A DNA stretch of 64,000 bases, taken from the NCBI GenBank assembly GCA_964412845.1, contig CAYPQM010000002.1, positions 14,497-78,496 of the forward strand, read 5' to 3'. Positions 1,386 to 38,537 of this stretch are shown here, one piece after another; the stretch's first letter is position 1, and every line of letters starts with the position of its first letter. Origin of the DNA: an uncultured Streptosporangiaceae bacterium (GTDB taxonomy: Bacteria > Actinomycetota > Actinomycetes > Streptosporangiales > Streptosporangiaceae). The notes beneath the pieces are model-generated. The model saw only the letters and a program-made list of their open reading frames with translations. It had not been told where the DNA came from and made no database searches. A program made the translations under genes and the position numbers.

Positions 1386-1853
1386 TCAGCTGCCGACGTC
1401 GTACCCAGCGGCCACGATCAGCGCCCGCGCGTCCCGGACGATCCGGGCGTGGTCGAACGCAACCTTCGCCGCGGGGTCCAGAACCTCGTTGACGAAGACC
1501 CACTCGACGTCGGCGGCATCGTCGCCGGCCGTGACCGCGGGTCGCTTGGGGAGCACGACCGTGTACGCGAAGGTGACGTAACGGCCACGCGGGTCCCGTC
1601 CCGGTTCGGCGTAGACGCCGACGGGCTTAAGGGTCCTGCCGCCCAGGTCCAGATTGGTCTCCTCGGTGAGCTCGCGGCGCGCGGCCAGCTCGATGTCCTC
1701 GCCCGGGTCGACGTGTCCGCCCGGGAGCGCCAGGGCCCCGGCGAACGGCTCGTACGCGCGGCGGATCATCAGGACGTACAACTCGCCATCGTTGATGCCA
1801 AAGACAACAACGTCCACTGTCAGCCTGGCGGTCTCTCGCCCGGTATCGGTCAT
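1386..1853 (-). CDS. NUDIX hydrolase (155 aa)
   Basis: Nudix box GHVDPGEDIELAARRELTEETNL (GX5EX7REUXEEXGU-like). Start is MTDTGRE (residue 96 of track ORF 1386..2138). Confidence 0.9.
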   Translation of the reverse strand: MTDTGRETARLTVDVVVFGINDGELYVLMIRRAYEPFAGALALPGGHVDPGEDIELAARRELTEETNLDLGGRTLKPVGVYAEPGRDPRGRYVTFAYTVVLPKRPAVTAGDDAADVEWVFVNEVLDPAAKVAFDHARIVRDARALIVAAGYDVGS

Positions 1854-1881
1854 GATCAGGTTCCTTTCGAAGGGAAGGTAT

Positions 1882-3273
1882 CTAGCTGGGCTGCTCGGCA
1901 GCTGTCGCGAGCGGCTGGGGTCCGGCCGATGCGCCGGCCCAGACCGGTGCCTCAAGGCTGACCTCGACGGCAGCGCGCGTGGACCAGCCGGTTCGGGCGA
2001 AGGTGCACAGCCCGACCCACTGCAGGACCCAGCCCAGGTACAGCTGCAGGACCGAGGCGACCGGGGCCAGCGCGAACGTGAGCCACTGCGATCCGCGGGG
2101 CAGGTCGGTCCGGACCAGGGACAGGTAGCGCACAGCACCGACGTAGGACAGCAGGACGTACACCGCGGCGAAGCCGGCGGCCGTGTGCCAGTCCTGGCAG
2201 CTGCGCCACAGCACCGCCGGCAGGATCAGCGCCATCCACGCGAACGTGATGAAGTCCCAGGTGACCATCCACCAGGCGATCCGGCGGGCCTGGAAGTTCC
2301 GCAGGAACCAGGCGTTGCCCCACCAGAATGACCGCCACCAGCGCGTCCGCTGCTTGGACAGGTGCCGCAGCGTCACCGGGTGCAGGGTGTAGCCCAGCGC
2401 GCGCCGCTGGAACACGGTGCGCCCGGCCTTGAGCGCGAACTTGGTGAGCATCGCGTCGTCACCGCTGGCGACCTGGCGGCCCGCGACCGTCTGGCCGAGG
2501 TAGAACTCGAGGTTGTCCCGGACGACGCGGCCGCGGTAGAACGCCAAGCCGCCGGCGTTCACCGTGACCGAGCCGAGCCGGGAGTACTGGGCCCGCCCGG
2601 ACAGGAACGAGCAGACGAACCCGAGGTCGACCAGCCGCGTGAGCAGGTTCGCGGTGGTGTTCGCACCGACCAGGAACCCGGCCACGGACATGGTCCGGCG
2701 CCTGGTGAACGGCATCAGCCCGTACTCGATCGCCCCGGGGTCCAGGATGACGTCGGAGTCGACGGTCACGTAGATGTCGGCGGCCGGGTCCATCTCGAAC
2801 GCCCGCGCCTGGGCGTGCCGCTTGCCGCCGTTGTCCTGGCGCACGAAGTCGGCCTCCAGGCCGTCCGGGCACCGGGCACCGTGCCAGGTCTCGAACACCA
2901 GCTGGCAGTCGCGGGTGTCGGATCCGTCGTCGACGACGATGAGCCGGGCCGGGAGCCGGGTCTGCGCGCCCAGGGAGTCGAGCATCCGGGCGAACATCGC
3001 CGGGTCCTCGTTGAACAGCGGCACCACCACCGTGACGTGCAGCGCGGCGAGCTTCGCCGCCGTCGCGCCGGTGGCCGGCACGATCGTGTCGCGGTGGGCT
3101 TGGGCCAGGACGGCCATGAGGACGAGCCAGCAGAACGCCGCGGTGGCGACCGCCGCGGCGTTGCTGGGGTGGCCGGACATCAGGGCGTCGGCGTGCCGTA
3201 GCCCGAGCCAGCCGAGGACGGCGGCCAGGGCGAGCAGGACCAGCGGGTAGCTGCGGCGCGGGCGCACGGTCAC
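1882..3273 (-). CDS. Processive family-2 glycosyltransferase, NodC/HasA (chitin/hyaluronan synthase)-like, multi-TM
   Basis: Motifs VVVPLFNE, VVDDGS, VDSD, SGDDAMLT and KQRTRWWRS (QxxRW), with N- and C-terminal TM segments. GTG start overlaps the upstream stop (GTGA). Confidence 0.9.
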   Translation of the reverse strand: MTVRPRRSYPLVLLALAAVLGWLGLRHADALMSGHPSNAAAVATAAFCWLVLMAVLAQAHRDTIVPATGATAAKLAALHVTVVVPLFNEDPAMFARMLDSLGAQTRLPARLIVVDDGSDTRDCQLVFETWHGARCPDGLEADFVRQDNGGKRHAQARAFEMDPAADIYVTVDSDVILDPGAIEYGLMPFTRRRTMSVAGFLVGANTTANLLTRLVDLGFVCSFLSGRAQYSRLGSVTVNAGGLAFYRGRVVRDNLEFYLGQTVAGRQVASGDDAMLTKFALKAGRTVFQRRALGYTLHPVTLRHLSKQRTRWWRSFWWGNAWFLRNFQARRIAWWMVTWDFITFAWMALILPAVLWRSCQDWHTAAGFAAVYVLLSYVGAVRYLSLVRTDLPRGSQWLTFALAPVASVLQLYLGWVLQWVGLCTFARTGWSTRAAVEVSLEAPVWAGASAGPQPLATAAEQPS

Positions 3274-3425
3274 CGCTGCTTGAGCTTGGCGTGGGCGCGC
3301 ATGCTCAGCGCGCCGATCAGCACGAAGGCGGCGGCCGCGATGGCGAGCCAGGGCACGGTGACGCCGGCGACGGCGACTCCGGCCAGCGCGGCACCGGTGT
3401 GGGCCAGGGTGGGGCGTCCATACAT
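3270..3425 (-). CDS. Small membrane protein (51 aa) translationally coupled to the GT2 gene
   Basis: MYGRPTLAHTGAALAGVAVAGVTVPWLAIAAAAFVLIGALS... with AAAGGA upstream. Its stop overlaps the GT2 GTG start. Confidence 0.6.
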   Translation of the reverse strand: MYGRPTLAHTGAALAGVAVAGVTVPWLAIAAAAFVLIGALSMRAHAKLKQR

Positions 3426-3546
3426 GAGCAGGGGGTCCTTTCGGATTGAGAGGTGGATGGCGGCGACGTGCGCGACGCTGGGGAATGGCCCCCGATCAGC
3501 CGGGGGCCCTCGCGCACGTTCTTCCTGGCTGCCCGGCCGCCCGGTG

Positions 3547-4071
3547 CTACTCCGCCCGGACGTCCGGGTCGGAGAACTGTGCGTACAGGGCGTCGGCACG
3601 CTGCAACGTGCCGGGGAACACCGCGCACACCAGCAGCGCGGCGTCCGGGCCCTGGTCGCGGACGCGGTCCTGCGCGACGTCCTCGGCGGCCAGCGGCGAC
3701 AGCGCCCAGACGTGCTCGCAGTACCGCTGGCCGCCGGTGCGCTGGGTCCACTCCGGGTCGGCCCGGTCGATGACCAGGCCCAGGACGGTCCAGTCGGTGA
3801 CCTCGAGCTCGTTCATGTCCGGCGTGAGGTTCTTGGCGTCCGCGTTGCGGACGTCGCGCGGGTCGACGTACAGCGTGTAGCCGTCGGCGGTCGGGACCTT
3901 GCCCTCCAGGACGCCGGCGACGTGGAAGCGCGCGCCGGCCTCGGCCGCGCTCATTCGAGCCAGGTCCTCGGCGGCGCGCGCCGACGTCGCCGTGTACCGG
4001 TCGCCGAAGCGCTCCTGGTTGTGCGGGAAGTACCCGAAGACGCTGAACTCCCGCTCGTCCAGTCCCGTCAT
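3547..4071 (-). CDS. Hypothetical protein (174 aa)
   Basis: C-terminal part of track ORF 3547..4731, from MTGLDERE. ATGA overlap with the upstream lipoprotein gene. Confidence 0.7.
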   Translation of the reverse strand: MTGLDEREFSVFGYFPHNQERFGDRYTATSARAAEDLARMSAAEAGARFHVAGVLEGKVPTADGYTLYVDPRDVRNADAKNLTPDMNELEVTDWTVLGLVIDRADPEWTQRTGGQRYCEHVWALSPLAAEDVAQDRVRDQGPDAALLVCAVFPGTLQRADALYAQFSDPDVRAE

Positions 4072-4697
4072 CGTCGGCCCCCGCGCAGGGACCCGCCGGA
4101 GATGCCGCCGCTGCTGGTCCGGGAGCCGCTGGTGCCGCCGATGGTCGTCTTGGAACCGCCGGTGGTGCCCGTCCCGGACTTGGAGCCGCCGGTCACGCTG
4201 CCCGAGGTGCCGCCGCGCAGGGATCCGCCGCCCATTGTCCCGACCGAGCCGCTGCCCGAGCCGAACTTCAGCTTGGCCGTCGACGGACCGGTCACCGTCT
4301 TGCCGGTGCTGGTCTTGTAGACCGCGGTCTTGGCCGCTGCGGTGATCTGCTTGGAGTACGTCGTGTGGAACACGGTCTCGGTGTGCACGTAAACGGTCCG
4401 GTGCGCCGGAAGCACGTAGACGTTGTAGTAGGCCGGGCTGTCGTAGTACGCGAAGTACTCCTCCTGCCACGACAGCGGCGCCCGGGTCGGGATCCAGCCG
4501 GCGGGGCAGCGGCCGTCGGCCAGCATCTGCTGGGCCTCGTACGGGTCGTCGAGGTAGTAGCAGCGGCCGACGCCGTTGATGACCTGGCCGGCGGCGACCG
4601 GGACGAGAGTGGGCTGCGACCCGCTGGAGCAGCCACCGAGGGTGACACCGAGGAGGATGGCCAGCGCCAGCAGCAGCGCGCGCAGGGTCTTCTTCAT
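4068..4697 (-). CDS. Lipoprotein with a Gly/Ser/Thr-rich C-terminal tail
   Basis: Signal peptide plus lipobox MKKTLRALLLALAILLGVTLGGC. Start is residue 27 of track ORF 4068..4775. Confidence 0.8.
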   Translation of the reverse strand: MKKTLRALLLALAILLGVTLGGCSSGSQPTLVPVAAGQVINGVGRCYYLDDPYEAQQMLADGRCPAGWIPTRAPLSWQEEYFAYYDSPAYYNVYVLPAHRTVYVHTETVFHTTYSKQITAAAKTAVYKTSTGKTVTGPSTAKLKFGSGSGSVGTMGGGSLRGGTSGSVTGGSKSGTGTTGGSKTTIGGTSGSRTSSGGISGGSLRGGRR

Positions 4698-5242
4698 GAG
4701 GCACGCGTTCCTTCGGTGCGCCACAGCGCACGGCCGTTGTTGCGTCCGGTGAACCAGTCCGGGAGTTCGGCCCATGCTTGGCCGAACAGAGCCTCCAGGC
4801 CCTCAGGGCTCTCGGCGAGGATGTCGCGGCACAGGCCGGCGACGGCGCGTGCGTCGGCGAGGAGAACCCCGGGGTCAGCCGTCTCGTGGTCGTCCGGCCA
4901 GGAGTAGGTCGCGCCGGCCGTCTTCGCGAGCTCCTTGACGCGGGCCTCGAGCGCGTCGAGCCGGTCGTAGGAGAAGTGCGCCAACCGGGGGTCGTCTCGG
5001 TACTGCGCCGCGACGTCGGCGCGATAGATCACGCGCGCACGAGCTTCCATCGTCCGGGCCGCGTACTCGCGGGCGAGCGTCTCGTCCTGGTAGGGCTCAG
5101 GGCCGGCCGCGTCGCGCTGACAGGGCTCGCACACCACGGCGGTTTCGGGTGGTGCGCCAGGATCGCACTCGGGGGCGTGGTTGTCCACGCCGTGGTGTGC
5201 TGTGCACACATAGTGGCAGCGCCGGACGGCGGTATCGGTCAT
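4694..5242 (-). CDS. Hypothetical protein with a Cys/His-rich N-terminus (182 aa)
   Basis: MTDTAVRRCHYVCTAHHGVDNHAPECD...VVCEPC. In frame with track ORF 4694..5590. ATGA overlap downstream. Confidence 0.7.
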   Translation of the reverse strand: MTDTAVRRCHYVCTAHHGVDNHAPECDPGAPPETAVVCEPCQRDAAGPEPYQDETLAREYAARTMEARARVIYRADVAAQYRDDPRLAHFSYDRLDALEARVKELAKTAGATYSWPDDHETADPGVLLADARAVAGLCRDILAESPEGLEALFGQAWAELPDWFTGRNNGRALWRTEGTRAS

Positions 5243-5652
5243 GCTCGGGTTCCCTTCTTGATCGATTCGGTGGACTTCCCGACGGCGGGTGCCGCGGGCT
5301 CCTCGGCGAGCGTCAGGCCCTTCAGTGCGAGCGCCGTTTCGATCTCGTTGAGGCGGTTCAGCCCGAGGCCTCGGATGTCGAGCAGGTCGTCGCGGGTTCG
5401 GGTGAGCAGCTGCGCGATGGTGCCGATCCCGCCGCGCCAAAGCGCGCCCTGGGCCGGGTCGGGCAGATTCAGGTCGCGCAGGTCGCTGACCATGAGGCTG
5501 GCCGTGGAGAACACGGCGCGCAGGTCTGCGACGGAGATGCGGATCCGGAATGCCGCGTCGCAGACGATCTCGACGCCGTCCCGGTCGCACCGGTCCAGCG
5601 CCAGACCGATCCGGTCGAGCGGAGTTACGGCAGAGACGTTGCTATCCGGCAT
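5239..5652 (-). CDS. Protein with a C-terminal RNA polymerase alpha-subunit CTD-like helix-hairpin-helix domain
   Basis: GGIGTIAQLLTRTRDDLLDIRGLGLNRLNEIETALALKGLTL resembles the RpoA CTD (..GELV.RTE.DLLDIRNFG.KS..EV...L...GLSL). GGGAGG lies 8 nt before the ATG. Confidence 0.7.
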   Translation of the reverse strand: MPDSNVSAVTPLDRIGLALDRCDRDGVEIVCDAAFRIRISVADLRAVFSTASLMVSDLRDLNLPDPAQGALWRGGIGTIAQLLTRTRDDLLDIRGLGLNRLNEIETALALKGLTLAEEPAAPAVGKSTESIKKGTRA

Positions 5653-6079
5653 GGCTGTCACCTCCCGCAGGATCGGTTGTCGCCATGCACTCGAGGGTGG
5701 CGGCCAGCTCGTCGGCGAGCGCCCGTTGGAGCATGGCCTCGGCGCGCTGGAACCTGATCTGTGCCGTCAGCAGGTTGCTGTAGGCCGCATGGCATACGGC
5801 TTTGAGCTCGGGGATGCTCGTGCCGGTCTGGGCCGGCTCAGCCTCAGCCGGTTCCGGCGGCGCGAGGAGGTCCAGCCCGGCGGCTTCCATCGTGTGGAGG
5901 ATGTCTGCCAGGGACGTTGCGCCCAGGCCCTTCAGCGCGGCGAGTTCAGTGACGCTGAGCTTCGTGAGCTGGCCGATGGTGGTGATGTCACTGTTAGTCA
6001 GTGCGTTGTAGGAGCGCGGGAGCAGGCCCAGTTCGACGATGTGGTCGCCCGGCCGAAGCGCGGTGTCGGTGTCAGCCAT
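5642..6079 (-). CDS. Protein with an N-terminal RNA polymerase alpha-CTD-like domain
   Basis: LGLLPRSYNALTNSDITTIGQLTKLSVTELAALKGLGATSLADILHTMEAAGLDL matches the L.VRSYNCL....I.TVGEL alpha-CTD pattern. Confidence 0.75.
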   Translation of the reverse strand: MADTDTALRPGDHIVELGLLPRSYNALTNSDITTIGQLTKLSVTELAALKGLGATSLADILHTMEAAGLDLLAPPEPAEAEPAQTGTSIPELKAVCHAAYSNLLTAQIRFQRAEAMLQRALADELAATLECMATTDPAGGDSHAG

Positions 6080-6476
6080 GGTCGTCGCTCACCGCCCCAC
6101 TCAGCGCACAGACGTGGAGCTCGGCGAAGCGCGCGAGGTCGACGAGCGTCCAGGCGTGCCCGGTGGTGCGGTAGCCGCAGTTGCGGCATCCGATCTCGAC
6201 GGCGCCCTGCTGGGCGCGCACGTCGAAGTCGCGGATAGTGCCGGCGCTGATGGCGCGGATCGGGCTGTCGGGCCACTCGACGGCGATGATCGCCTCGGTG
6301 AGGGTGTTGGCCAGGCGGTTGCGGACCAGGTTCGCGGCGCTGTAGCCGAGGCCGGAGAACCGCGGGTCGTCGCGGACGATCTGGCCGAGGGCGTCCCAGT
6401 CGACGGCCCGGACTGCGCGGGTGACGAGCTCGATGGCGACGGCTTGGACAAGGTCGTTGTCGGGCAGGTCGTTCAC
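6072..6476 (-). CDS. Hypothetical protein (134 aa), GTG start
   Basis: V129 of track ORF 6072..6860 is a GTG in a GTGA overlap with the upstream stop. The sequence upstream of it is Arg/Pro junk. Confidence 0.6.
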   Translation of the reverse strand: MNDLPDNDLVQAVAIELVTRAVRAVDWDALGQIVRDDPRFSGLGYSAANLVRNRLANTLTEAIIAVEWPDSPIRAISAGTIRDFDVRAQQGAVEIGCRNCGYRTTGHAWTLVDLARFAELHVCALSGAVSDDHG

Positions 6477-10088: not shown

Positions 10089-11006
10089 TCAGGTCCGGGC
10101 GGTGCGGATCGCCTCGGCGAGGTCCAGGATCGCGATGCAGAGCGCTTCGGTGGCGGCGAGCTGGACGGAGTCCTGGCGGGTGACGTTGTCGCCGGGGATG
10201 GAGTGCAGGAGGTGCTCGGCCCGGCCGGCGGCGGTCCGCGGCTTGTACTCGTGGCGGCCACCCCTGGCCAGCGCCCGGCCGATCGTGGCCAGGCCGTCGA
10301 GGGGCCCAACCGGCAGGTACCTGCCCTCGTTCTCGGAGAGACCCTCGTCGTCCTCGGCGAAGATCCACACGTCGCCGTCGCGGAGCGTGGCCACGACGCC
10401 CGGCCGGTACTCCCCCTCCCAGTCGCCCGACTCGTCGTCGTAGTGGCGGGTGTCCTGCGCGGGGAAGATCGGCACGCAGAGCGCGCCGTCGTCGCTGTTG
10501 CGGACCGCCACCTTCTTGTCGACGGGCACGCCGATGGCCTCGAACGCGTCCCAGATCCTCTGGAAGTCGGCGGCGGCCGTCTCCTGCGCGGCCGCGGTGC
10601 GCCTGGTCTCCTCGTGGTCGAAGGCGGCGGCAGCGCGCGCCGCCAGTTCGCTGGTGTCGTTCATCGGGACTGCTTCCTGATCAGTGGCCGGCCGCGGTCG
10701 GCTGGCCGAAGTGAGTCGCCCGCCGGGTGTTGATCCCGGGTCTGCCTCGGTGCCGTCAGCGGTGTGGAACCGCTTGGCCTCGGCCTCGCGCATCCGCTTG
10801 CACAGCTTGCACTCGAACATGCAACGCGTCTCGATCAGCTGTACCGCCTCGTCGAAGGTGCACTCGGTGAGGTCCGGACAGTTGCCGCGGCCGACGCCGT
10901 TGCGCAACCGCTGGTAGTTCGCGACGGTCGCGCATCGCATGGTGTGGGCGACTCCGCGTCCCTGGCTGCTCAGGTGGGCGGTGCGGGTGGCGGTCGCGGT
11001 GGTCAT
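10089..11006 (-). CDS. Hypothetical protein (305 aa) with a Cys-rich N-terminal third; first gene leftward of an operator region
   Basis: Single open frame. N-terminus reads CATVANYQ..NCPDLTECTFDE..CMFECKLCKR. An internal M (MNDTSEL) is a possible alternative start. Confidence 0.65.
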   Translation of the reverse strand: MTTATATRTAHLSSQGRGVAHTMRCATVANYQRLRNGVGRGNCPDLTECTFDEAVQLIETRCMFECKLCKRMREAEAKRFHTADGTEADPGSTPGGRLTSASRPRPATDQEAVPMNDTSELAARAAAAFDHEETRRTAAAQETAAADFQRIWDAFEAIGVPVDKKVAVRNSDDGALCVPIFPAQDTRHYDDESGDWEGEYRPGVVATLRDGDVWIFAEDDEGLSENEGRYLPVGPLDGLATIGRALARGGRHEYKPRTAAGRAEHLLHSIPGDNVTRQDSVQLAATEALCIAILDLAEAIRTART

Positions 11007-11022
11007 GTCGGAGCCCTTCTCG

Positions 11023-11091
11023 CTAAAGTCACTTTTTGTGACTCTAGAACCATGCTCTCACCAGCCGCTTCTAAAGTCAACGAATGTGACT
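11023..11091. promoter_or_regulatory. Two copies of a 21-bp operator-like site, CTAAAGTCA-N5-TGTGACT, in an AT-rich divergent intergenic region
   Basis: The copies are at 11023..11043 (CTAAAGTCACTTTTTGTGACT) and 11071..11091 (CTAAAGTCAACGAATGTGACT), 48 bp apart. Each contains the inverted half-sites AGTCA/TGACT. Confidence 0.6.
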
Positions 11092-11149
11092 TACGATGGG
11101 CTGGGAACCACCCCACCGATCTGCGATCATGTGCCGAGTGGAGGACGTG

Positions 11150-11362
11150 ATGAGTCGACTAGCCGCTCAAGCCGCGCGCGAAGCCGGCGAGCGCGCCAGG
11201 ACCGAGGCCCTCATCGTCGAGGCGTACGGCGACGACCGCAGCCTCCGCGACATCGCGCGCACCGTCGAGCTCAGCCACGAGCAAGTGCGCCGAATCCTGA
11301 CGCGCCACGGAGTCGAGATCCGCGGCCGCGGTCGCGCCGCCCAGCCGAAGCCCGCCGAGTAG
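11150..11362 (+). CDS. Small helix-turn-helix DNA-binding protein (70 aa)
   Basis: MSRLAAQ... with DRSLRDIARTVELSHEQVRRILTRHG (HTH). GGAGGA lies 5 nt upstream. Divergent from the operator pair. Confidence 0.75.
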   Translation: MSRLAAQAAREAGERARTEALIVEAYGDDRSLRDIARTVELSHEQVRRILTRHGVEIRGRGRAAQPKPAE

Positions 11363-16264: not shown

Positions 16265-17551
16265 TCAGCGCCGGTGCTCCAGCGCTGCGTACTGTTCGCG
16301 GGTCCAGCCGAAGGACCAGGCCGCGGCCGCGACTGGGTCGGCGAAGTGGCCGGGGACGGTCAGGCCGAAGCGGCGGCGGGTACCGTCGCGCTCGGTGGAA
16401 CCGTTGGTACACAGAAGAACGCGCACGTGGGCCCGGTAGACACGGCTGGGTACGTCGTACAGCGCGAGTTCCTGGCCCGGGTTGCCGGGGTCCGGGACGG
16501 GCAGGCCGACGGGCACCATGGCAGCCTGGTCGATGAACCGGTCCCAGCCGAGGCGTTCGATGGCAACGCGTCGGATCTCGGTGTTGCGCTCGGCCAGGAT
16601 CTTGTCGCTGGGCCACTCGGGGCCTTCGATGAGGTCGGCTGGGACTTGGGTGCCGTGCCAGGCGTGGATGCCCCATCCGTCGCGGTAGGCCACGGCTGGG
16701 CCCTTGTCGGCGTGAAGCTGTTGCTGATCGTCCAAATGGATGGACTCGGGTCGGTCGCAGATCACGACGGTGTCCTGGAAGGGCCACCAGGGGCCGGCGT
16801 TGCTGGCGATCAGCATCTCCGCGTGGAGCGCCGGCTTGTTGGGCTCGAACTTCGCCGGCGGAACCCCGTCGATCAGGGGCCCGCTGAGACGCGACCGGTT
16901 CCACGGCATGGGCAGGTACTCGGACATCTCCCTGGCTCGCCGCCGGTCCTCGGCTCCCATTCGCGCGATGAGCTCGCAGCGGGTCAGCCTTTCGGCATCG
17001 AACTGCCCCGGGTGCACGCGGAGTCTGCGGAGTGCGTAGTAGAGATCAGCGTCTCTGGCTGATCGAAGGTCGAAGCCCACCTGAAGAGTAGTCTCGCGAT
17101 TCGGAATGACCGCGTTTGTGAGCTGGGCTCCGATGGGCCGGATGAAGTCGGCCGCGAGCATGCCTGAGACCCTGCTGGCCCACCAGACATTTTCGGTGTT
17201 GTAAAAGCCCTGTCGTTCGTGTGGTGGCAGGAGTACGTCCCAGGGCAGCGGCTGGTCGTGCGCGAGGAGGCATTTTTTGACGAGGCGGACGGCGTCGGCG
17301 GGCGAGGTGGCCCATTCGATCCAGGGCTGTCGCTGCTCGCGGGCCCGGTAGAAGTCGCTGATCCCGATCTCGGCCAGCTGCCGGTTGGCGGGCTCGGTGG
17401 ACAGACCCCAGGTCCGCCACGTCCGGCTGAGTTCCTGGGCCCGGGTCGCCGGATCCAGGTAGCGGTGAAGAGGCACCCACGCCTCGCGGGCCGACCAGTA
17501 CGGCGAGAGGGGCGGCCGGGTCGAACTGTTGGGGATCGGTTCCGACGTCAT
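16265..17551 (-). CDS. Uncharacterised-family protein, paralog 3 of 3 (428 aa; resembles DUF6745 from memory)
   Basis: Shares WGLSTEPANR, GPWWPF, CDRP, HADKGPAVAYRDGWGIHAWHGTQVP, RRVAIERLGWDRF, PVPDPGNPGQELALY and RRRFGLTVP...YAALEHRR with the two upstream genes. Confidence 0.85.
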   Translation of the reverse strand: MTSEPIPNSSTRPPLSPYWSAREAWVPLHRYLDPATRAQELSRTWRTWGLSTEPANRQLAEIGISDFYRAREQRQPWIEWATSPADAVRLVKKCLLAHDQPLPWDVLLPPHERQGFYNTENVWWASRVSGMLAADFIRPIGAQLTNAVIPNRETTLQVGFDLRSARDADLYYALRRLRVHPGQFDAERLTRCELIARMGAEDRRRAREMSEYLPMPWNRSRLSGPLIDGVPPAKFEPNKPALHAEMLIASNAGPWWPFQDTVVICDRPESIHLDDQQQLHADKGPAVAYRDGWGIHAWHGTQVPADLIEGPEWPSDKILAERNTEIRRVAIERLGWDRFIDQAAMVPVGLPVPDPGNPGQELALYDVPSRVYRAHVRVLLCTNGSTERDGTRRRFGLTVPGHFADPVAAAAWSFGWTREQYAALEHRR

Positions 17552-18825: not shown

Positions 18826-20148
18826 TCAGCGGCGGTGCTCCAGGGCGGCGTAGTCGTCGCGATCCCAGCCGAAGGTCCAGGCCGCGGCTTCGACCGGGTC
18901 GGTGAAGCGGGCCGGGACGGTCAGACCAAAGCGCCGACGCGTGCCATCGCGCTCCTCGGAGCCGTTCGTGCACAGCAGGACACGTACGGGGTTGCGGTAG
19001 ATCCGGCCGGGCACGTCGTACAGCGCGAGCTCCTGGCCGGGGTTCCCCGGGTCCGGGACAGGGGCACCCACGGGCGCCAGCTTCGCGTCTGCGATGAACC
19101 GGTCCCAGCCGATGCGCTCGACGGCCGCGCGGCGGACCTCGGTGTTGGGGTGGGTCAGGATCTGCTTTGCGGTCCAGCCGGGCCCGTCGATCAGGTCGGC
19201 GGGGACAGGCGTGCCGTGCCAGAAGTAGACGCCCCAGCCGTCCGGGTAGACCACGGCGGGGCCGTCCTCGGCGTGAGGACGCTCCTGCTGGTCCATCAGG
19301 ATGCCGCTGGGGCGCTCGCAGGCGATGACCAGCTTGTCAAAGGGCCACCAAGGTCCGGCGCTGCGCGCGATTTTTGCCAGGGCGTCCAGGGCAGCGCTGC
19401 GGGGTCGGTTCGGGCGGGCCCGCTTGCCGACCTCGTGCAGAGCGAAGCTCTCGGCGTCGAACTGCCCGGGGATCAGCGGAGGGCCGTCCTTGCTGGCAAA
19501 GCGGACGAGCGTTCCTGCGGGCGACGTTGCCAGTGCTGCGCGGAAGACCTCGCGGCCGATCTGACCCACCAGCTGCAGGTTGGCCGTAGTCCCGAGCATG
19601 AACCTCCAGAGAACGTCGGTTCCCCCGACCAGCGCCTTGTATTCGTTGTCAGGCATGAGCTCGTCGCGTGACAGGCTTCTGGCATCAGCAGCGGCGATCA
19701 CGGCCTTGTAGATTCCGACTGCGGCACGGGGTGACTGCGCCCAGATGATCTGGGACGGCTGTGGCAGCCCGCGCGCCTGGTACACCTTGCGGATACCGGC
19801 CTCGGCCGTGGCACGATCGGCGGGCTCGGTCGACAGCCCGGCTTTCGCCCACCGCGCGGTGGTGCTCGTTGAGATGCTCACGTCTCCGAAAGCCTCCACA
19901 GTGCTGAAGAACACGGGCAGGTCGAATTCCACGGAGAAATCCATCGTCGAGGGCAGCAGCGCACCTCTGTGATCGACGTTCCATGACACCGGCGTGTTGA
20001 CGCCCGGGATCAGAACGGGTGGTGACGGGCTCACCGCGCCCGCGTGCTTCCGGGAGCGACGCCGGTGGCGGTGCAGGCCGACGGCCCCGGCGGCGGCACC
20101 GGCCGCTGCTGTGACGAAGGGCGCGACAGTGAGGATGGCGGTGATCAT
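18826..20148 (-). CDS. Uncharacterised-family protein, paralog 1 of 3, with an N-terminal TM anchor (440 aa)
   Basis: Start is MITAILTVAPFVTAAAGAAAGAV (residue 100 of track ORF 18826..20445), followed by the same motif set. Confidence 0.8.
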   Translation of the reverse strand: MITAILTVAPFVTAAAGAAAGAVGLHRHRRRSRKHAGAVSPSPPVLIPGVNTPVSWNVDHRGALLPSTMDFSVEFDLPVFFSTVEAFGDVSISTSTTARWAKAGLSTEPADRATAEAGIRKVYQARGLPQPSQIIWAQSPRAAVGIYKAVIAAADARSLSRDELMPDNEYKALVGGTDVLWRFMLGTTANLQLVGQIGREVFRAALATSPAGTLVRFASKDGPPLIPGQFDAESFALHEVGKRARPNRPRSAALDALAKIARSAGPWWPFDKLVIACERPSGILMDQQERPHAEDGPAVVYPDGWGVYFWHGTPVPADLIDGPGWTAKQILTHPNTEVRRAAVERIGWDRFIADAKLAPVGAPVPDPGNPGQELALYDVPGRIYRNPVRVLLCTNGSEERDGTRRRFGLTVPARFTDPVEAAAWTFGWDRDDYAALEHRR

Positions 20149-20282
20149 CAGGGTCCGATCAGCTGGTCGACGCAGCAGGCGAGAGCAACGCCGCCGAGGG
20201 CTGCGATGAGGACGATCAGGGCAAGCAGCCCGGCTGCGGCTGCCAGGCGTCCGGCGGCCCACGCGGCCCGGCGCGCGGTCAC
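20148..20282 (-). CDS. Possible 44-aa single-TM peptide, GTG start
   Basis: VTARRAAWAAGRLAAAAGLLALIVLIAALGGVALACCVDQLIGP. GTGA overlap with the LuxR stop, and its stop abuts the paralog-1 ATG. Confidence 0.45.
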   Translation of the reverse strand: MTARRAAWAAGRLAAAAGLLALIVLIAALGGVALACCVDQLIGP

Positions 20283-20749
20283 GGCGTCCTGCCGGGGCGG
20301 CTCGCGGTCGCGCGGCGGTGAAACTCGACGCGGCGCATGACGGCGCGGGCGTGCTCGCGCACGGGCGTGGGTGTCGGCGAGTTGGCGACGGCACCGACGA
20401 CGCCGAGCAGCCCGTCGACGAGCCGGGCCGGCAGCAGGACGGCATTCCCGCCAGTTGGCGGCCGCGGCACCGGGACGGGGATGGGAACGGGAGCGGGCGT
20501 CTCGGGCTGCTGGGCTGGCCCCGGGGGTGCCGGGATGGTGCCGAGGCCGATGGCGATCGCAGCGGCCTCGGTGCGGCTGGCGGCGCCGAGCTTGAGGCAG
20601 ATGCGGCTGAGGTGCGACTTGACGGTGAAGAACGCGATGCCGAGCTCGGCGCCGATCCGGGCGTTGGAGTGGCCGGCGGCCACCAGCACGAGGACGTCGA
20701 TCTCGCGGGTGGACAGCGGGGAGCCTAGGCGGGGCGTGCGGCGCTTCAT
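20279..20749 (-). CDS. LuxR/GerE-family HTH regulator with an N-terminal HTH, Pro-rich linker and unknown C-terminal domain
   Basis: LSTREIDVLVLVAAGHSNARIGAELGIAFFTVKSHLSRICLKLGAASRTEAA. Preceded by a 157-bp non-coding gap. Confidence 0.85.
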   Translation of the reverse strand: MKRRTPRLGSPLSTREIDVLVLVAAGHSNARIGAELGIAFFTVKSHLSRICLKLGAASRTEAAAIAIGLGTIPAPPGPAQQPETPAPVPIPVPVPRPPTGGNAVLLPARLVDGLLGVVGAVANSPTPTPVREHARAVMRRVEFHRRATASRPGRTP

Positions 20750-22934: not shown

Positions 22935-23588
22935 TCAGGGGCTGCCGCTGGCGACGAGCCCGGCGGCTGGCGACGTCGAGTCGGCGCCCCAGGGACGGCC
23001 CGGGTCCCGCAGGCCCGCGGTGACGAGCGCGCTGAGGATGGCGGGAAGGGTCGCGTCTCCTATCCCGGGCCGGCTGCGCAGGTCGGCGTCAGAGGCGGCC
23101 ATGAGTTCGGCGACGGTGTGGATGCCGGCCCGGCGCAGCCGGTTGTGCACCTTGACGGGCAGCGCGAGCGTCCACAGCGGGGCGTCGGGGTTGAGGGGCG
23201 TCTGCGGGGCCGCCAGCTGGGCGGCCCGGGCCGCGCGCGAGGTGTCCCGGAGCGCGTGGGTCGGCGGTGTGCCCAGCATCAGGGGCGCGTGCACGGCGGG
23301 AGGCGTAGCCCGAATCGCGTCTCGCGCCTGGGCCAGGGCCCGCTTGCCGTACGCGGTGATCATCAATCCCCCGCGTTGGCGCTCAAGGAACCCGTCGCGC
23401 ACTAGGTAGCTGGCAACATTCGCGACGTGGTTGGCGGACCGGCCGATGCGCAGCGCGATCTCGGCGGGTCGCGCGCAGGGCTGCTTGGCGCACGCCGACA
23501 GCAGCAGGTAGTCCATCCCGTTCAGCCCGAGGTGCCTCAGGCGGTAGGTGTCGGCGTGGCGCTGCTGGGTGCCGGGGAGTGTGGTCAC
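22935..23588 (-). CDS. Fusion protein: MarR-like winged helix plus an RNAP alpha-CTD-like HhH domain (217 aa, GTG start)
   Basis: N-terminus PAEIALRIGRSANHVANVASYLVRDGFLERQ. C-terminus LALPVKVHNRLRRAGIHTVAELMAASDADLRSRPGIGDATLPAILSALVTAGL. GTGA overlap with the rusA stop. Confidence 0.7.
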   Translation of the reverse strand: MTTLPGTQQRHADTYRLRHLGLNGMDYLLLSACAKQPCARPAEIALRIGRSANHVANVASYLVRDGFLERQRGGLMITAYGKRALAQARDAIRATPPAVHAPLMLGTPPTHALRDTSRAARAAQLAAPQTPLNPDAPLWTLALPVKVHNRLRRAGIHTVAELMAASDADLRSRPGIGDATLPAILSALVTAGLRDPGRPWGADSTSPAAGLVASGSP

Positions 23589-26275: not shown

Positions 26276-26848
26276 TCAGATCGCGTCGGCCGGCAGCAGG
26301 CGGGCCAGGCTTCGGACGGCTCGGTATTGCAGGGTCTTGACGGCGCCTTCCTGCTTGCCCATGATCTCGGCGGTCTCGGTGACGGACTTCTGTTCGAGGA
26401 AGCGCAGCGTGACGCACATCTGCTGCTGCTCGTTGAGCCGTTTGACGGCGCTGCGGAGTACGCAGTTGTCCAGGTACGTCACGATGGCGTCCTCGGTCGA
26501 CGGCTCCAGCTCATCGCCGTCGAGCATTTCGCCGGTCGAGACCTCCCGGCGGTGGCGACTCGACTTGAAGTTGTCCGCGATGAGGTTGCGGGCGATGGTG
26601 ATGAGCCACGCTCCGAGGTCCTTGCCCTGCCAGCTGAAGGTGGTGATCCGGCACAACGCGCGGACGAACGTCTCGCTGGTGAGGTCTTCGGCCAGCGGAC
26701 GGGTGGCGACGCGGTAGTAGATGAAGCGGAACACCGTGTCGCGGTAGGCGACATACAGCTCGCCGAAGGCTTCTCGGTCGCCGGCCTGGGCAGCCGTGAC
26801 GATCTCCACCATTCGCTCGTGCGCGAGCACCTGGGTGCGGTCAGTCAT
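26276..26848 (-). CDS. ECF-type sigma-70 family RNA polymerase sigma factor
   Basis: Region 2 is FGELYVAYRDTVFRFIYYRV...AEDLTSETFVRAL...GAWLITIARNLIAD. Region 4 is RFLEQKSVTETAEIMGKQEGAVKTLQYRAVRSL. Confidence 0.9.
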   Translation of the reverse strand: MTDRTQVLAHERMVEIVTAAQAGDREAFGELYVAYRDTVFRFIYYRVATRPLAEDLTSETFVRALCRITTFSWQGKDLGAWLITIARNLIADNFKSSRHRREVSTGEMLDGDELEPSTEDAIVTYLDNCVLRSAVKRLNEQQQMCVTLRFLEQKSVTETAEIMGKQEGAVKTLQYRAVRSLARLLPADAI

Positions 26849-32499: not shown

Positions 32500-32555
32500 C
32501 TTTGCTGAGCTCCTGAACTGCATGTTTGCAGTCAGGGGCTTTACACTTTCGGAAT

Positions 32556-32576
32556 CTGGTGCACCGTCTGGTGCAC
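32556..32576 (+). repeat. attP right arm-type sites (TCTGGTGCAC x2)
   Basis: Two direct copies 12 bp apart, upstream of the int start. Confidence 0.55.
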
Positions 32577-32638
32577 CTCCGAGTGAGCGCCATACGAAAG
32601 CCGGTCCACCGACGGTCCACTCGTCGTACGTTCCAAAT

Positions 32639-34048
32639 ATGGCGTGGATCGAGACTACCGAGCGCAAGGCCAAGCCGGGGCAGAAGAAGAAGCCCCTCTC
32701 CTACCATGTCCGCTGGCGCCAAGGCGGCGCCCGGGACGGCGGCAGCGAGGTCGAGACCTTCCGGGACGAGAAGGAGGCCGAACACTTCAAGGCCGCAGTC
32801 AACCTCGCCGGTGACCAGTACCCCCCCAACTTCATCCCGAAAATCGGCTGGGTCACGCCCGACGTGTACAAGGCGTTCCTCGTCGACGTCGAGGCCGCCG
32901 AGACGGAAGCCGAGCAGCCACCGCCGCCCGAGACGATCGGCGCGTTCGCCCGGAAGCTCGTACTGAGCATGACCAAGGTCGGGCGGGGCGGAAAGAAGAA
33001 GTACCTACGGATAATCGCTCTCCACATCAATCCCTGGTGGGGATCCCTCCCGATCAATGACGAGGCAACCCTCAACATGATCGGCATCGGCACGTGGATC
33101 AACGATCTGCTGGACGGCAAATCACCCCCCGTCGACCAGACGCCGCAAGATCCGCACCCGAAGCGCACGAAGCTCAAGCCGAAGACCGCCCGGAACATCC
33201 ACGGTCTCTTCTTCGCGATCATCCAGACCGCGCTGGAGATGAAGCTGCGGGCCGACAACCCGTGCCTGAAGACACAGCTGCCGAACGTCGATGACGGCGA
33301 AGGCGACTGGGAGATGGTCTTCCTGTCCCCCGAGGAGTACGGCATGATCCGTCGCCACATGCGCGCCGACGCGGTGGATCTCACGGACCTACTTGTCGGC
33401 ACCGGGGCTCGCTACTCAGAGGCCACGGGCTTCCGAAAGCGCGACCACGTCCATGACGAGACCGGCCGACCCTGGCTCAACGTGCGCAAGGCGTGGAAGA
33501 ACGAGGCCGGCAACTGGGTCTTGAGCAAGCCCAAGACGCGGAAGTCCGTACGCGGGCTCGTTCTCACCGCAAGCCAGGACGAACTGGTTGCCAGACTCAC
33601 GGAGGGCAAGCAGCCCGACGACCTGGTCGTCACGAACCGGGGTGGCAACCGATGGATTCACCAGACCTACTACACACAGTGCTGGCGCCCGGCGGTCTAT
33701 TGCGCGGTCCGCTGCGAACGGCACAGGAACGCCGACCTGGCCGCGGGTATCGGACGTCGCGGCTATCGGTACCTGCTTTCCGCGCACATCGTGCCCTGTG
33801 GATGTCCGGGCACGCTCACGAAGGTCCCGCGCATCCACGACCTACGGCACACTCACGTAGCGTGGCTGATCGCCAAGAAGGTCCCGGTGAAGGCGATCCA
33901 GGAGCGGCTCGGCCATCGATCGAGCCAGACTACGTTGGACCGCTACGGGCACCTGCTGGATGAGGTCGTCGACGACGTCCAGGCTGCAGTCGACGTGATG
34001 ATGGAGCGGGCAGCCGTGGACGTGGCCCAGCTGCCCGCCGCAGCCTAG
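32639..34048 (+). CDS. int: Tyrosine integrase (469 aa)
   Basis: Start is MAWIETTERKAKPGQKKKPLSYHVRW. C-terminal catalytic region TGARYSE...HDLRHTHVAWL...LGHRSSQTTLDRYGHL. Confidence 0.9.
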   Translation: MAWIETTERKAKPGQKKKPLSYHVRWRQGGARDGGSEVETFRDEKEAEHFKAAVNLAGDQYPPNFIPKIGWVTPDVYKAFLVDVEAAETEAEQPPPPETIGAFARKLVLSMTKVGRGGKKKYLRIIALHINPWWGSLPINDEATLNMIGIGTWINDLLDGKSPPVDQTPQDPHPKRTKLKPKTARNIHGLFFAIIQTALEMKLRADNPCLKTQLPNVDDGEGDWEMVFLSPEEYGMIRRHMRADAVDLTDLLVGTGARYSEATGFRKRDHVHDETGRPWLNVRKAWKNEAGNWVLSKPKTRKSVRGLVLTASQDELVARLTEGKQPDDLVVTNRGGNRWIHQTYYTQCWRPAVYCAVRCERHRNADLAAGIGRRGYRYLLSAHIVPCGCPGTLTKVPRIHDLRHTHVAWLIAKKVPVKAIQERLGHRSSQTTLDRYGHLLDEVVDDVQAAVDVMMERAAVDVAQLPAAA

Positions 34049-34332
34049 TCGCTGGACTCGGTCAGCGCGCCACGGAGCTTCAGCAAGCGCTGGTCGGCAC
34101 GGTCCTCGGCATCGGTCAGTGCCCACTTGACGTCCGTCACGTGGGCCCGGCCTAATCGTGCGACCGCATAGCCCACCGTCAGCGCCAGCGCGAGGGCGTC
34201 GGCCAGGTCTGCGACCTCGCCGCTCCTCGGCGTCGTCGGCAACCACAGCGTGATCACTGCCGATACCGCCCACGCCACCGCCACGGCCGGACCGCCGATC
34301 CTGCGGAAAATGCGAACAACAACTTCGGACAT
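34045..34332 (-). CDS. Small membrane protein (95 aa)
   Basis: Track ORF with hydrophobic segments. Convergent with int, overlapping it by 4 nt. Confidence 0.55.
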   Translation of the reverse strand: MSEVVVRIFRRIGGPAVAVAWAVSAVITLWLPTTPRSGEVADLADALALALTVGYAVARLGRAHVTDVKWALTDAEDRADQRLLKLRGALTESSD

Positions 34333-34577
34333 CGGGTTGTCTCCCCACAGCCTGAACTGCCTCTACTTGCCCCCAAGTGAACGACACGCTACGCAGCGCG
34401 TACCAGCGACGCGATCACCAACACAGAGACACTTTTCGAACTCGGGACGTTTCGGAATACCCTGACATACGGCGCCTTTCATCGATATTTGATTCTCCAA
34501 CGACACAGGGCTCTGACGTGGCAGTGTGGTGCGACGCGCCAGGGGACGCGGTCGGATCCAGGGGAGGGCACGGCGGC

Positions 34578-35432: not shown

Positions 35433-35506
35433 CGCTGACGGCACGCGCTCTTCCCCCTACGATGAGTGCTGACGTACAACCGTAGGCGGCTCGCTTAGGG
35501 GGAACC

Positions 35507-36724: not shown

Positions 36725-36774
36725 GACGCTGGTGCGAACAGGGCGTTGAGGCAACGAAACTCGCGTTTCTCACG

Positions 36775-38453: not shown

Positions 38454-38537
38454 ATCAAGACGGTATAGGACTCGTATACCCACGGTGAGCGTCTTTGCCG
38501 ATACCGTCCAAACTACCAGGTCAGAGCGGAGGGCGCC

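What the first reader, a model, noticed from the sequence alone, without database searches (positions are those of the whole stretch)
5239..6079. Two adjacent phage genes each carrying an RNA polymerase alpha-subunit C-terminal-domain (alpha-CTD) look-alike
The 5642..6079 product starts with ...LGLLPRSYNALTNSDITTIGQLTKLSVTELAALKGLGATSLADILHTMEAAGLDL. The 5239..5652 product ends with ...GGIGTIAQLLTRTRDDLLDIRGLGLNRLNEIETALALKGLTL. Both follow the bacterial RpoA alpha-CTD pattern (L.VRSYNCLKR.GI.TVGEL..RTE.DLLDIRNFG.KS..EV...L...GLSL) closely, including the DLLDIR core in the second.

The alpha-CTD is the docking surface for UP elements and class I activators. Free-standing copies made early by a phage could act as decoys or adaptors that re-route host transcription. 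The two genes overlap by 11 nt, and the domain is N-terminal in one and C-terminal in the other, which suggests a heteromeric pair. A third copy is fused to a MarR-like domain at 22935..23588.
Basis: partly seen in the sequence, partly recalled or inferred. Interest (0 to 1): 0.7.

Follow-up and report, generated by a model that had tools for sequence, protein, structure and literature searches.

The report
Phage genes copying RNA-polymerase alpha tail
A temperate, high-GC phage known only from metagenomes carries three small genes whose products each contain a true copy of the DNA- and activator-docking tail domain of the bacterial RNA polymerase alpha subunit; such phage proteins are already annotated in databases, I found no paper characterising any, and this trio would be a good test case for how phages might imitate that domain.

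Summary
On the minus strand, gene A (5642..6079, 145 aa) and gene B (5239..5652, 137 aa) overlap by 11 nt. Each carries one RNA_pol_A_CTD (PF03118) domain above Pfam's cut-off (45.9 and 31.9 bits; cut-off 23.8). Gene C (22935..23588) carries a third (32.1 bits). HHH_5 is below cut-off for all three. Their PDB sequence matches (E ≤ 0.01) are all RpoA CTDs, and all top-50 fold matches of the A and B models are RpoA alpha-CTDs. None has the alpha N-terminal domain, so none is an RpoA.

Family A keeps R265, N268, G296 and S299 and adds a flexible linker and a heptad helix. Family B has lost R265 and N268 and adds a new N-terminal domain. The copies are old and diverged (28–39% identity to RpoA), not tandem duplicates. 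The A/B pairing is absent from the only two relatives with readable flanks.

The domain is widely reused outside RpoA: 29 of 105 carriers also have a sigma region 4 domain. It is already auto-annotated in other phages, and I found no paper characterising any. The phage also encodes an ECF sigma factor.

Function is inferred only. I favour RNA-polymerase-independent alpha-CTD modules that modulate transcription. Verdict: new member of a known, uncharacterised kind; moderate interest.

The parts
5642..6079 (-). Gene A, 145 aa. It has an N-terminal alpha-CTD-like domain (residues ~12-70), a Pro/Glu/Ala-rich flexible linker (72-88) and a long heptad-patterned helix (89-134).
   Evidence: Pfam PF03118 45.9 bits. 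PDB sequence hits are RpoA only. The AF2 model has pLDDT 83-91 in the domain. All top-50 Foldseek PDB hits are RpoA alpha-CTDs, target TM-score up to 0.91. R265, N268, G296 and S299 are kept. The heptad a/d positions read ILCALAFALAEACT. The single full-length relative is P0005, 54% identical in the global alignment.
5239..5652 (-). Gene B, 137 aa. It has a small alpha/beta N-terminal domain with no database match (residues ~10-55), an alpha-CTD-like domain (~57-112) that lacks R265 and N268, and a disordered tail.
   Evidence: Pfam PF03118 31.9 bits. The best PDB sequence hits are mycobacterial and Streptomyces RpoA CTDs. The AF2 model has pLDDT 81-87 in the domain. Foldseek hits are RpoA alpha-CTDs only. 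The family has five members, and all lack R265 and N268.
5642..5652 (-). The 11-nt overlap between the gene A stop (TAG 5642-5644) and the gene B start (ATG 5650-5652), with a GGGAGG Shine-Dalgarno inside the end of gene A.
   Evidence: Read directly from the sequence.
22935..23588 (-). Gene C, 217 aa. It has an N-terminal winged-HTH (MarR/TrmB-like, sub-threshold), a linker and a C-terminal alpha-CTD-like domain (K at position 265, N268 kept).
   Evidence: Pfam PF03118 32.1 bits; MarR 19.7 bits against a cut-off of 24.6. The best PDB hit is Streptomyces coelicolor RpoA 7vpd, 29.1 bits. Residue map.
26276..26848 (-). Phage-encoded ECF-type sigma factor. This is context: a possible functional partner of the alpha-CTD-like proteins.
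   Evidence: Pfam Sigma70_r2 51.8 bits and Sigma70_r4_2 40.7 bits.

Best explanation
SHOWN. A, B and C are small phage proteins that each carry one genuine member of the RNA polymerase alpha C-terminal domain family. They have no alpha N-terminal assembly domain, so they cannot be incorporated into RNA polymerase as alpha subunits.

INFERRED. They act as polymerase-independent alpha-CTD modules in transcription control.

A resembles a 'mini-alpha in reverse'. Its head keeps the core UP-element/minor-groove contact residues (R265, N268, G296, S299). A flexible linker tethers the head to a heptad helix that probably oligomerises. An A dimer would then present two DNA-binding heads, as the alpha dimer does. 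It could occupy upstream promoter DNA next to a -35 element, either competing with the host alpha-CTD or supplying the contact in trans, for example at promoters read by the phage's own ECF sigma factor.

B has lost the DNA-contact residues but keeps the fold. It most likely uses the fold for protein-protein contacts, acting as an adaptor or titrator of a factor that docks on the alpha-CTD, with its private N-terminal domain providing the second contact.

C joins the same module to a sequence-specific winged-HTH.

A and B are co-translated from one operon in this phage but are probably not an obligate pair.
For: Domain identity.

No alpha N-terminal domain: no RNA_pol_A_bac or RNA_pol_L hit even at E ≤ 10; NCBIfam rpoA scores are 18-40 bits against cut-offs of 228-523.

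A keeps R265, N268, G296 and S299. So do Goe8 gp5 and Mazun gp26. R265 is at least 90% conserved among 105 non-RpoA carriers.

Linker and heptad helix. The helix is as conserved in P0005 as the domain itself.

B family lacks R265 and N268 in 5 of 5 members.

Recurrent natural fusion of alpha-CTD-like repeats with Sigma70_r4 (29 of 105) and with other HTH domains. This echoes the solved alpha-CTD/sigma region 4/UP-(-35) DNA complex 3n97, which is among the fold hits.

The phage carries its own ECF sigma factor, a GerE/LuxR regulator and several HTH regulators.
Against: There is no functional data of any kind, and no homolog has been characterised (paper searches).

A lacks K297 and K298, which contribute to UP-element binding in E. 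coli (my own knowledge), and its net charge is -11. No set of AT-rich UP-like tracts is visible in the window.

The genes lie between a DnaB-like helicase and lysogenic-conversion-like genes (lipoprotein, GT2, NUDIX), not next to the sigma factor.

The list of non-RpoA carriers is biased towards multi-repeat proteins, because domain scores add up.

One natural variant truncates A before the helix.

Oligomerisation of A is inferred only from a heptad pattern and a monomer model built on a 2-sequence alignment.
Confidence: 0.35

Rival explanations
1. These are generic (HhH)2 DNA-binding modules serving phage DNA metabolism (replication, recombination, packaging or partition), with no connection to RNA polymerase. 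The alpha-CTD fold is simply one convenient minor-groove binder.
For: A and B lie three genes downstream of a DnaB-like helicase. C lies next to RusA and a DNA methylase and near a PDDEXK exonuclease. PF03118 repeats occur in many non-RpoA proteins, some with integrase-associated DUF3701, HARE-HTH or HNH repeats. Microbacterium phage homologs are annotated only as 'DNA binding protein'.
Against: B has lost the DNA-contact residues. The commonest fusion partner of the domain is sigma region 4, a transcription module. All immediate neighbours are ORFans, so the context is uninformative.
Confidence: 0.3
2. One reading: A and B form an obligate heteromer that acts as a decoy. It soaks up host class I activators or UP-element DNA to shut down host transcription early in infection.
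For: The genes are adjacent, overlap by 11 nt and are probably translationally coupled. The domain arrangements are complementary. B's second half closely resembles the actinobacterial RpoA CTD ('DDLLDIRGLG' against 'SDLLDIRNFG').
Against: The pairing is not conserved. L006 has B without A, and L007 has A without B, within flanks of 0.9-4.2 kb. All copies are only 28-39% identical to any RpoA CTD, which is poor mimicry of the surfaces activators recognise. The phage looks temperate, and timing of expression is unknown. No multimer prediction could be run.
Confidence: 0.15
3. Anti-defence mimic. The copies imitate the alpha-CTD-like domain inside the BREX type 2 kinase PglW, or protect against a host system that senses or modifies the alpha-CTD.
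For: A and C give weak hits to the internal domain of PglW: PADLOC E 1.8e-5 and 3.8e-5 at about 20 bits, plus NCBIfam BREX_PglW hits. The host is probably an actinobacterium, where Pgl/BREX type 2 occurs (my own knowledge).
Against: The PglW scores are well below the RpoA scores (20.8 against 45.9 bits for A) and reflect only a shared domain type. B gives no PADLOC hit at all. No defence or anti-defence genes were recognised nearby.
Confidence: 0.05

Closest known systems
C-terminal domain of the bacterial RNA polymerase alpha subunit (RpoA alpha-CTD; Pfam PF03118; e.g. PDB 1LB2, 3N97, 7VPD, 5VI8)
   Same: Same domain family and same predicted fold (RMSD 0.6-1.5 Å over about 60 residues). A keeps R265, N268, G296 and S299. 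B and C are closest to actinobacterial RpoA CTDs.
   Different: None has the alpha N-terminal assembly domain, so none is a polymerase subunit. Identity to any RpoA CTD is only 28-39%. B lacks R265 and N268. A lacks K297 and K298 and carries the domain at its N-terminus, followed by a linker and a coiled-coil-like helix.
Auto-annotated phage 'RNA polymerase alpha subunit C-terminal domain-containing' proteins (Bacillus phage Goe8 gp5; Microbacterium phage Mazun gp26 and relatives; Rhodococcus phage Finch; Mycobacterium phage Mithril; many 'uncultured Caudovirales phage' entries of 105-140 aa)
   Same: These are small phage proteins with a single PF03118 domain plus a private extra domain. Goe8 gp5 and Mazun gp26 keep R265, N268, G296 and S299, as A does, and place the domain C-terminally, as B does. 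I found no paper characterising any of them.
   Different: There is no sequence similarity outside the domain. In GenBank phages the domain was found in only 35 of 50,697 records (some of them host contamination), with at most 2 places per record, whereas this phage has three. The R265-less B family and the A architecture were not seen among them.
Non-RpoA proteins with tandem alpha-CTD-like repeats, often fused to sigma-70 region 4 or other HTH domains (metagenomic proteins P0006-P0153)
   Same: Same domain, with R265 at least 90% conserved, used outside RNA polymerase. The association with transcription-type HTH modules parallels C (winged-HTH plus alpha-CTD-like domain).
   Different: Those proteins are long (median about 550 aa) with 2-8 repeats. 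A, B and C are short, single-domain proteins encoded by a phage.
Phage strategies that target the host alpha-CTD (T4 Alt/ModA ADP-ribosylation of R265; phage G1 gp67 blocking UP-element use; phiKMV Rac cleavage of alpha)
   Same: If the transcription reading is right, the target process is the same: alpha-CTD-dependent promoter recognition.
   Different: Those systems modify or block the host domain. Here the phage would supply its own copy. There is no sequence or structural relationship, and this comparison rests on my own knowledge and on abstracts retrieved.

Membership tests
Pfam RNA_pol_A_CTD (PF03118) domain family | Profile score at or above the curated gathering threshold (23.8 bits) | tested here: met
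   A 45.9, B 31.9 and C 32.1 bits.
Pfam RNA_pol_A_CTD (PF03118) domain family | Compact helical (HhH)2-type bundle that superposes on solved alpha-CTD structures | tested here: met
   The AF2 models of A and B have domain pLDDT of 81-91. All top-50 Foldseek PDB hits are RpoA alpha-CTDs, with target TM-scores of 0.8-0.91 and RMSD of 0.6-1.5 Å. These are predicted models, not experimental structures. C was not modelled.
Pfam RNA_pol_A_CTD (PF03118) domain family | DNA-binding '265 determinant' (E. coli R265, N268, G296, K298, S299) | tested here: inconclusive
   A: R, N, G, T, S (4 of 5). C: K, N, G, A, T. B family: P/W/A/T, G/A, G, N/K/A, R, so not met for B.
RpoA (RNA polymerase alpha subunit) | N-terminal dimerisation and core-assembly domain (RNA_pol_A_bac / RNA_pol_L), and a full-length equivalog score | tested here: not met
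   No such Pfam hit even at E ≤ 10. NCBIfam rpoA models score 18-40 bits against cut-offs of 228-523. The proteins are 137-217 aa.
Generic helix-hairpin-helix domains (HHH_5; RuvA domain II, NusA AR type) | A better or equal match to generic HhH profiles or structures than to the alpha-CTD | tested here: not met
   HHH_5 scores 13.2, 14.3 and 25 bits against a cut-off of 27, always below the PF03118 score. No RuvA or NusA chain appears in the top-50 fold hits.
MarR-family winged-HTH regulators (for gene C) | MarR profile score at or above the gathering threshold | tested here: inconclusive
   MarR 19.7 bits (cut-off 24.6), MarR_2 19.7 (27) and TrmB 16.8 (25.6). A winged-HTH is likely, but the subfamily is not established.
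BREX type 2 kinase PglW | Full-length match including the kinase domain | tested here: not met
   NCBIfam BREX_PglW scores 10-17 bits against a cut-off of 990. The PADLOC hits cover only profile positions ~784-893.

The most novel reading that the evidence does not exclude
The phage uses trans-acting alpha-CTD surrogates as a transcription-takeover device. A, dimeric and DNA-binding competent, sits on upstream promoter DNA and contacts sigma region 4 of the phage's own ECF sigma factor, or else displaces the host alpha-CTD. B, a copy unable to bind DNA, titrates or re-routes a factor that normally docks on the host alpha-CTD. C delivers the same module to specific operators. This would be a case of a virus imitating, rather than modifying, the alpha-CTD; I know of no precedent.
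Probability: 0.22. Interest if true: 0.75.

Novelty: new member of a known kind. Interest (0 to 1): 0.48.

Why it matters
The alpha-CTD is the main docking point for UP elements and class I activators. Phages are known to disable it chemically or sterically. Phage-encoded free copies are sitting in databases under automatic labels, yet the searchable literature has no experiment on any of them.

This phage offers a compact natural contrast within one genome that also has its own sigma factor. One copy keeps the DNA-contact residues and has a probable dimerisation helix. One has lost those residues. One is fused to a winged-HTH. That makes the question 'what does a polymerase-independent alpha-CTD do?' directly testable with a handful of constructs.

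If these turn out to be ordinary DNA-binding modules, the practical lesson is that a PF03118 hit should not be read as 'RNA polymerase subunit' in phage annotation.

Tried and rejected
- **Chance or generic HhH:** rejected.
- **True RpoA or a host-gene fragment:** rejected. There is no N-terminal domain, identity to RpoA CTDs is only 28-39%, and the genes sit inside a coupled phage operon.
- **Recent tandem duplication of A and B:** rejected. BLAST finds no A-B hit, and each copy is closer to RpoA than to the other.
- **Conserved A-B gene pair:** not supported.
- **Close relatives:** searches in GenBank phages (megablast and tblastn), IMG/VR and GTDB genomes found nothing full length. JGI metagenomes gave only domain-level hits.
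- **Neighbour annotation:** PHROGs, Pfam and NCBIfam gave no function for the neighbouring genes except the DnaB-like helicase.
- **Promoter/terminator scan** of 1-12.5 kb: nothing above shuffled expectation.
- **AT-rich tract search** for UP-like sites: only six tracts in 64 kb, none near A or B.
- **Rfam:** no hits.
- **Literature:** seven searches found no paper on phage-encoded alpha-CTD-like proteins. The jumbo-phage review and the one paper mentioning PF03118 were irrelevant.
- **A-to-B frameshift fusion:** I saw no obvious slippery sequence at the junction on reading it; B is in the +1 frame relative to A.
Full report
**What the window is.**
The window is 70% GC and almost all its genes are on the minus strand. 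It encodes a phage portal, an SU10-type major capsid protein, a tape-measure protein and a GH25 lysin at 40-64 kb. At 1-32 kb it encodes a DnaB-like helicase, a C5 DNA methylase, a PDDEXK exonuclease, RusA, an ECF-type sigma factor and a GerE/LuxR regulator. A tyrosine integrase lies at 32522..34048.

The same sequence occurs on metagenome contigs of about 95 kb from several samples: JGI 3300028800 and ENA ERZ27245386, plus shorter Logan and JGI contigs. It has no close relative among 50,697 GenBank phage records. I therefore read it as an uncultivated, probably temperate, tailed phage. The host is most likely an actinobacterium. That rests on the GC content and on the best RpoA matches of B and C being mycobacterial and Streptomyces. 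It is an inference, not a demonstration.

**Checking the observation.**
ATG 5652 follows a GGGAGG Shine-Dalgarno, and gene A ends at TAG 5642-5644, so the 11-nt overlap is real. The upstream gene (6072..6476) overlaps A by 8 nt, and B overlaps the downstream gene (4694..5242) by 4 nt. A and B are thus embedded in a translationally coupled chain.

Third-codon-position GC (0.82 for A, 0.86 for B) supports the coding frames. So do the conserved homologs.

Pfam places one RNA_pol_A_CTD domain in each of A, B and C (22935..23588) at 45.9, 31.9 and 32.1 bits, against a gathering score of 23.8. The generic HHH_5 model stays below its cut-off in all three. A domain HMM of my own, scanned over every six-frame ORF, finds exactly these three domains (E ≤ 2.3e-12) and nothing else better than E 0.22.

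**Alpha-CTD or generic HhH?**
I tested that in three ways.
- By profile, PF03118 always outscores HHH_5.
- By sequence against the PDB, all matches of A, B and C with E ≤ 0.01 are RpoA chains. A is best with 4noi, B with M. smegmatis 5vi8/5tw1, then M. tuberculosis and Streptomyces, and C with S. coelicolor 7vpd.
- By fold, the AF2 models of A and B have domain pLDDT of 81-91. All of their top-50 Foldseek hits in the PDB are RpoA alpha-CTDs, with target TM-scores of 0.8-0.91 and RMSD of 0.6-1.5 Å over about 60 residues. No RuvA or NusA chain appears.

The domains are therefore alpha-CTD type. They are not RpoA. No alpha N-terminal domain is detected even at E ≤ 10, and the NCBIfam rpoA equivalog models score 18-40 bits against cut-offs of 228-523.

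**Anatomy.**
A has four parts: the alpha-CTD-like head (residues ~12-70), a low-confidence Pro/Glu/Ala-rich linker (72-88), one long helix (89-134) and a short disordered end. In one register the helix a/d positions read I-L-C-A-L-A-F-A-L-A-E-A-C-T. Their mean hydropathy is 2.04, against 0.82 or less in the other six registers. That is the signature of a coiled-coil-like oligomerisation element. The helix is as well conserved as the head in P0005, the only full-length relative.

B has a small alpha/beta N-terminal domain (helix 11-24, two short strands, helix 41-55; pLDDT 62-76) with no database match. It runs straight into the alpha-CTD-like domain (58-110) and a disordered tail.

C has a winged-HTH of MarR/TrmB type, below Pfam's thresholds, then a linker and the alpha-CTD-like domain.

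**Functional residues.**
I confirmed my recalled E. coli alpha-CTD sequence and numbering against the PDB, then aligned the domains. That R265, N268, G296, K298 and S299 form the UP-element DNA-binding determinant is established knowledge, not something tested here.
- Family A (A and P0005) keeps R265, N268, G296 and S299. It replaces K297/K298 with A/T.
- C has K, N, G, A and T at positions 265, 268, 296, 298 and 299.
- Family B, all five members, has P/W/A/A/T at position 265 and G/A at 268. It has an invariant Arg at 299, and a Trp at 271 in four of five members.
- The cultured-phage proteins Goe8 gp5 and Mazun gp26 keep R, N, G and S.
- The R265-equivalent column is at least 90% conserved across 105 non-RpoA carriers of the domain.

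So A looks like a typical DNA-binding-competent copy. B is a clear departure that has given up the canonical DNA contact.

**Origin of the three copies.**
Local alignments give 28-39% identity between any phage copy and any RpoA CTD, and 31-37% among the phage copies. Each copy scores higher against an actinobacterial RpoA CTD than against its phage neighbours:
- A-Sco 85, against A-C 74 and A-B 62.
- B-Msm 112, against B-C 71.
- C-Sco 108, against C-A 74.

BLAST finds no A-B hit at all. By comparison, the Streptomyces and E. coli RpoA CTDs are 49% identical. The copies are thus old and diverged. They are neither recent captures of host rpoA nor tandem duplicates.

**Distribution and pairing.**
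An exhaustive phmmer search of 1.84 billion representative proteins found one full-length relative of A (P0005, 151 aa). An index-based profile search found four relatives of B. IMG/VR and GTDB genomes hold no full-length relative of either family. JGI metagenomes, searched with the A family only, gave domain-level hits only.

The contig with a B homolog (L006) shares the downstream genes with the window but has no A homolog in the 1.4 kb upstream or the 4.2 kb downstream. The contig with the A homolog (L007) has no B homolog in its 1.3 kb and 0.9 kb flanks. An HMM scan confirms one domain per contig. The flanks are short, so a distant partner cannot be excluded. Adjacency, however, is not a conserved feature, which weakens the obligate-heteromer idea.

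One assembly (ENA ERZ27245386) carries a GAG→TAG change that truncates A after residue 90, exactly before the helix.

**How specific the domain is to RNA polymerase.**
Most of the 509 significant hits of A are long proteins with 2-8 tandem alpha-CTD-like repeats. Multi-repeat proteins are favoured in that list because domain scores add, so it is not an unbiased census.

Of 105 such proteins scanned, all have PF03118 and 29 also have a Sigma70_r4 domain. Others have HARE-HTH, TPR, integrase-associated DUF3701 or HNH repeats, and one example has HTH_17. The alpha N-terminal domain families are not among the 25 most frequent. The domain is therefore a mobile module used well outside RpoA, most often alongside transcription-type HTH domains.

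In viruses it is already annotated automatically. BFVD holds several proteins of 105-140 aa labelled 'RNA polymerase, alpha subunit, C-terminal [uncultured Caudovirales phage]', plus proteins from Rhodococcus phage Finch and Mycobacterium phage Mithril.

A tblastn search with the domain consensus hits 35 of 50,697 GenBank phage records. Several look like host rpoA contamination. The credible ones are Bacillus phages Goe8 and HSE3, four Microbacterium phages ('DNA binding protein'), three mycobacteriophages ('hypothetical protein'), Ruegeria phage V16 and Morganella phage Mecenats66. No record has more than two places. Seven literature searches found no paper characterising any of them.

**Mechanism: what I commit to and how firmly.**
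Shown: three polymerase-independent alpha-CTD-family domains in one phage, with different states of the DNA-contact residues and different partner domains.

Inferred: they are transcription-modulating modules.

A resembles an inverted alpha subunit: DNA-binding head, flexible linker, oligomerisation helix. As a dimer it could occupy upstream promoter DNA as the two alpha-CTDs do, either competing with the host domain or supplying the contact in trans. Two things make cooperation with the phage sigma an attractive version: the recurrent natural fusion of this domain with sigma region 4, and the phage's own ECF sigma factor.

B, lacking R265 and N268, more plausibly works through protein contacts. 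C ties the module to a specific DNA site.

I give this reading about 0.35.

The main rival, at about 0.3, is that these are ordinary (HhH)2 DNA-binding modules of replication or recombination proteins. The genomic context next to a DnaB-like helicase, RusA and a methylase is compatible with that.

Against my preferred reading: A is very acidic overall (net charge -11) and lacks K297 and K298, no UP-like AT tracts stand out in the window, and there is no experiment anywhere.

**Verdict.**
The functional interpretation is plausible in outline but untested, and its heteromer element is weakened.

The kind of thing, a small phage protein with a free alpha-CTD-family domain, is already catalogued by automatic annotation, so I file this as a new member of a known but uncharacterised kind. 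Its unusual features are:
- three copies in one genome;
- an R265-less family with a private N-terminal domain;
- a 'reverse mini-alpha' architecture;
- a co-resident phage sigma factor.

Interest is moderate, because the system would make an open question about polymerase-independent alpha-CTDs directly testable.

Noticed in passing
window 26276-26848 (minus strand): The phage encodes its own ECF-type sigma factor (Sigma70_r2 51.8 bits, r4_2 40.7 bits). The window is unusually rich in regulators: a GerE/LuxR protein at 20279-20749, an HTH_58 protein at 11138-11362 (+), an HxlR-type HTH in 34377-35432 (+) and an XRE-type HTH in 37284-38771 (-).
   Followed up: partly
window 32522-38771: A lower-GC stretch (64-67%) lies next to a tyrosine integrase (32522-34048, +). 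It carries a cytochrome P450 (35507-36724, +), a flavoprotein-domain protein (36775-37959, -) and HTH regulators. This looks like a cargo or moron island between the integrase and the lysis genes. A P450 is an unusual gene for a phage.
   Followed up: partly
L001 10001-10273 (ENA ERZ27245386 k141_968903), equivalent to window ~5807-5809: A natural GAG→TAG nonsense variant (E91*) truncates gene A to the alpha-CTD-like head plus linker, removing the heptad helix. Other assemblies (JGI, Logan) have the intact 145-aa gene.
   Followed up: partly
window 11017-11097: Two of the six AT-rich tracts in the whole window lie here. They contain palindromic or repeated AAAGTCAC...GTGACT motifs and sit in the divergent intergenic region between the minus-strand gene 10089-11006 and the plus-strand HTH_58 gene. 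This looks like an operator or switch region.
   Followed up: no
window 16265-17017 and 18826-19656 (minus strand): Two paralogous DUF6745 proteins (116.8 and 123.5 bits) lie about 1.8 kb apart in the early region.
   Followed up: no
window 62328-62409 (+): ARAGORN calls an 82-nt tRNA-Ala(GGC) on the plus strand inside a 532-aa minus-strand ORF (60876-62474) next to the portal gene. Rfam reports no tRNA there at gathering threshold, so it is probably a false positive.
   Followed up: partly
window 1386-4697 (minus strand): Downstream of A and B the operon ends with lysogenic-conversion-like genes: a predicted lipoprotein (4068-4697, signal peptide ending ...LGGCSS), a small hydrophobic protein (3270-3425), a family 2 glycosyltransferase (1882-3273) and a NUDIX hydrolase (1386-1853). 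The 182-aa protein directly after B (4694-5242) has a Cys/His-rich N-terminus (CHYVCTAHH...C...C..C), suggesting a zinc-binding motif.
   Followed up: no
proteins P0006-P0153, no window coordinates: A large, unannotated class of metagenomic proteins carries 2-8 tandem alpha-CTD-like repeats. 29 of 105 also have a sigma-70 region 4 domain. I could not determine their organisms or functions.
   Followed up: partly
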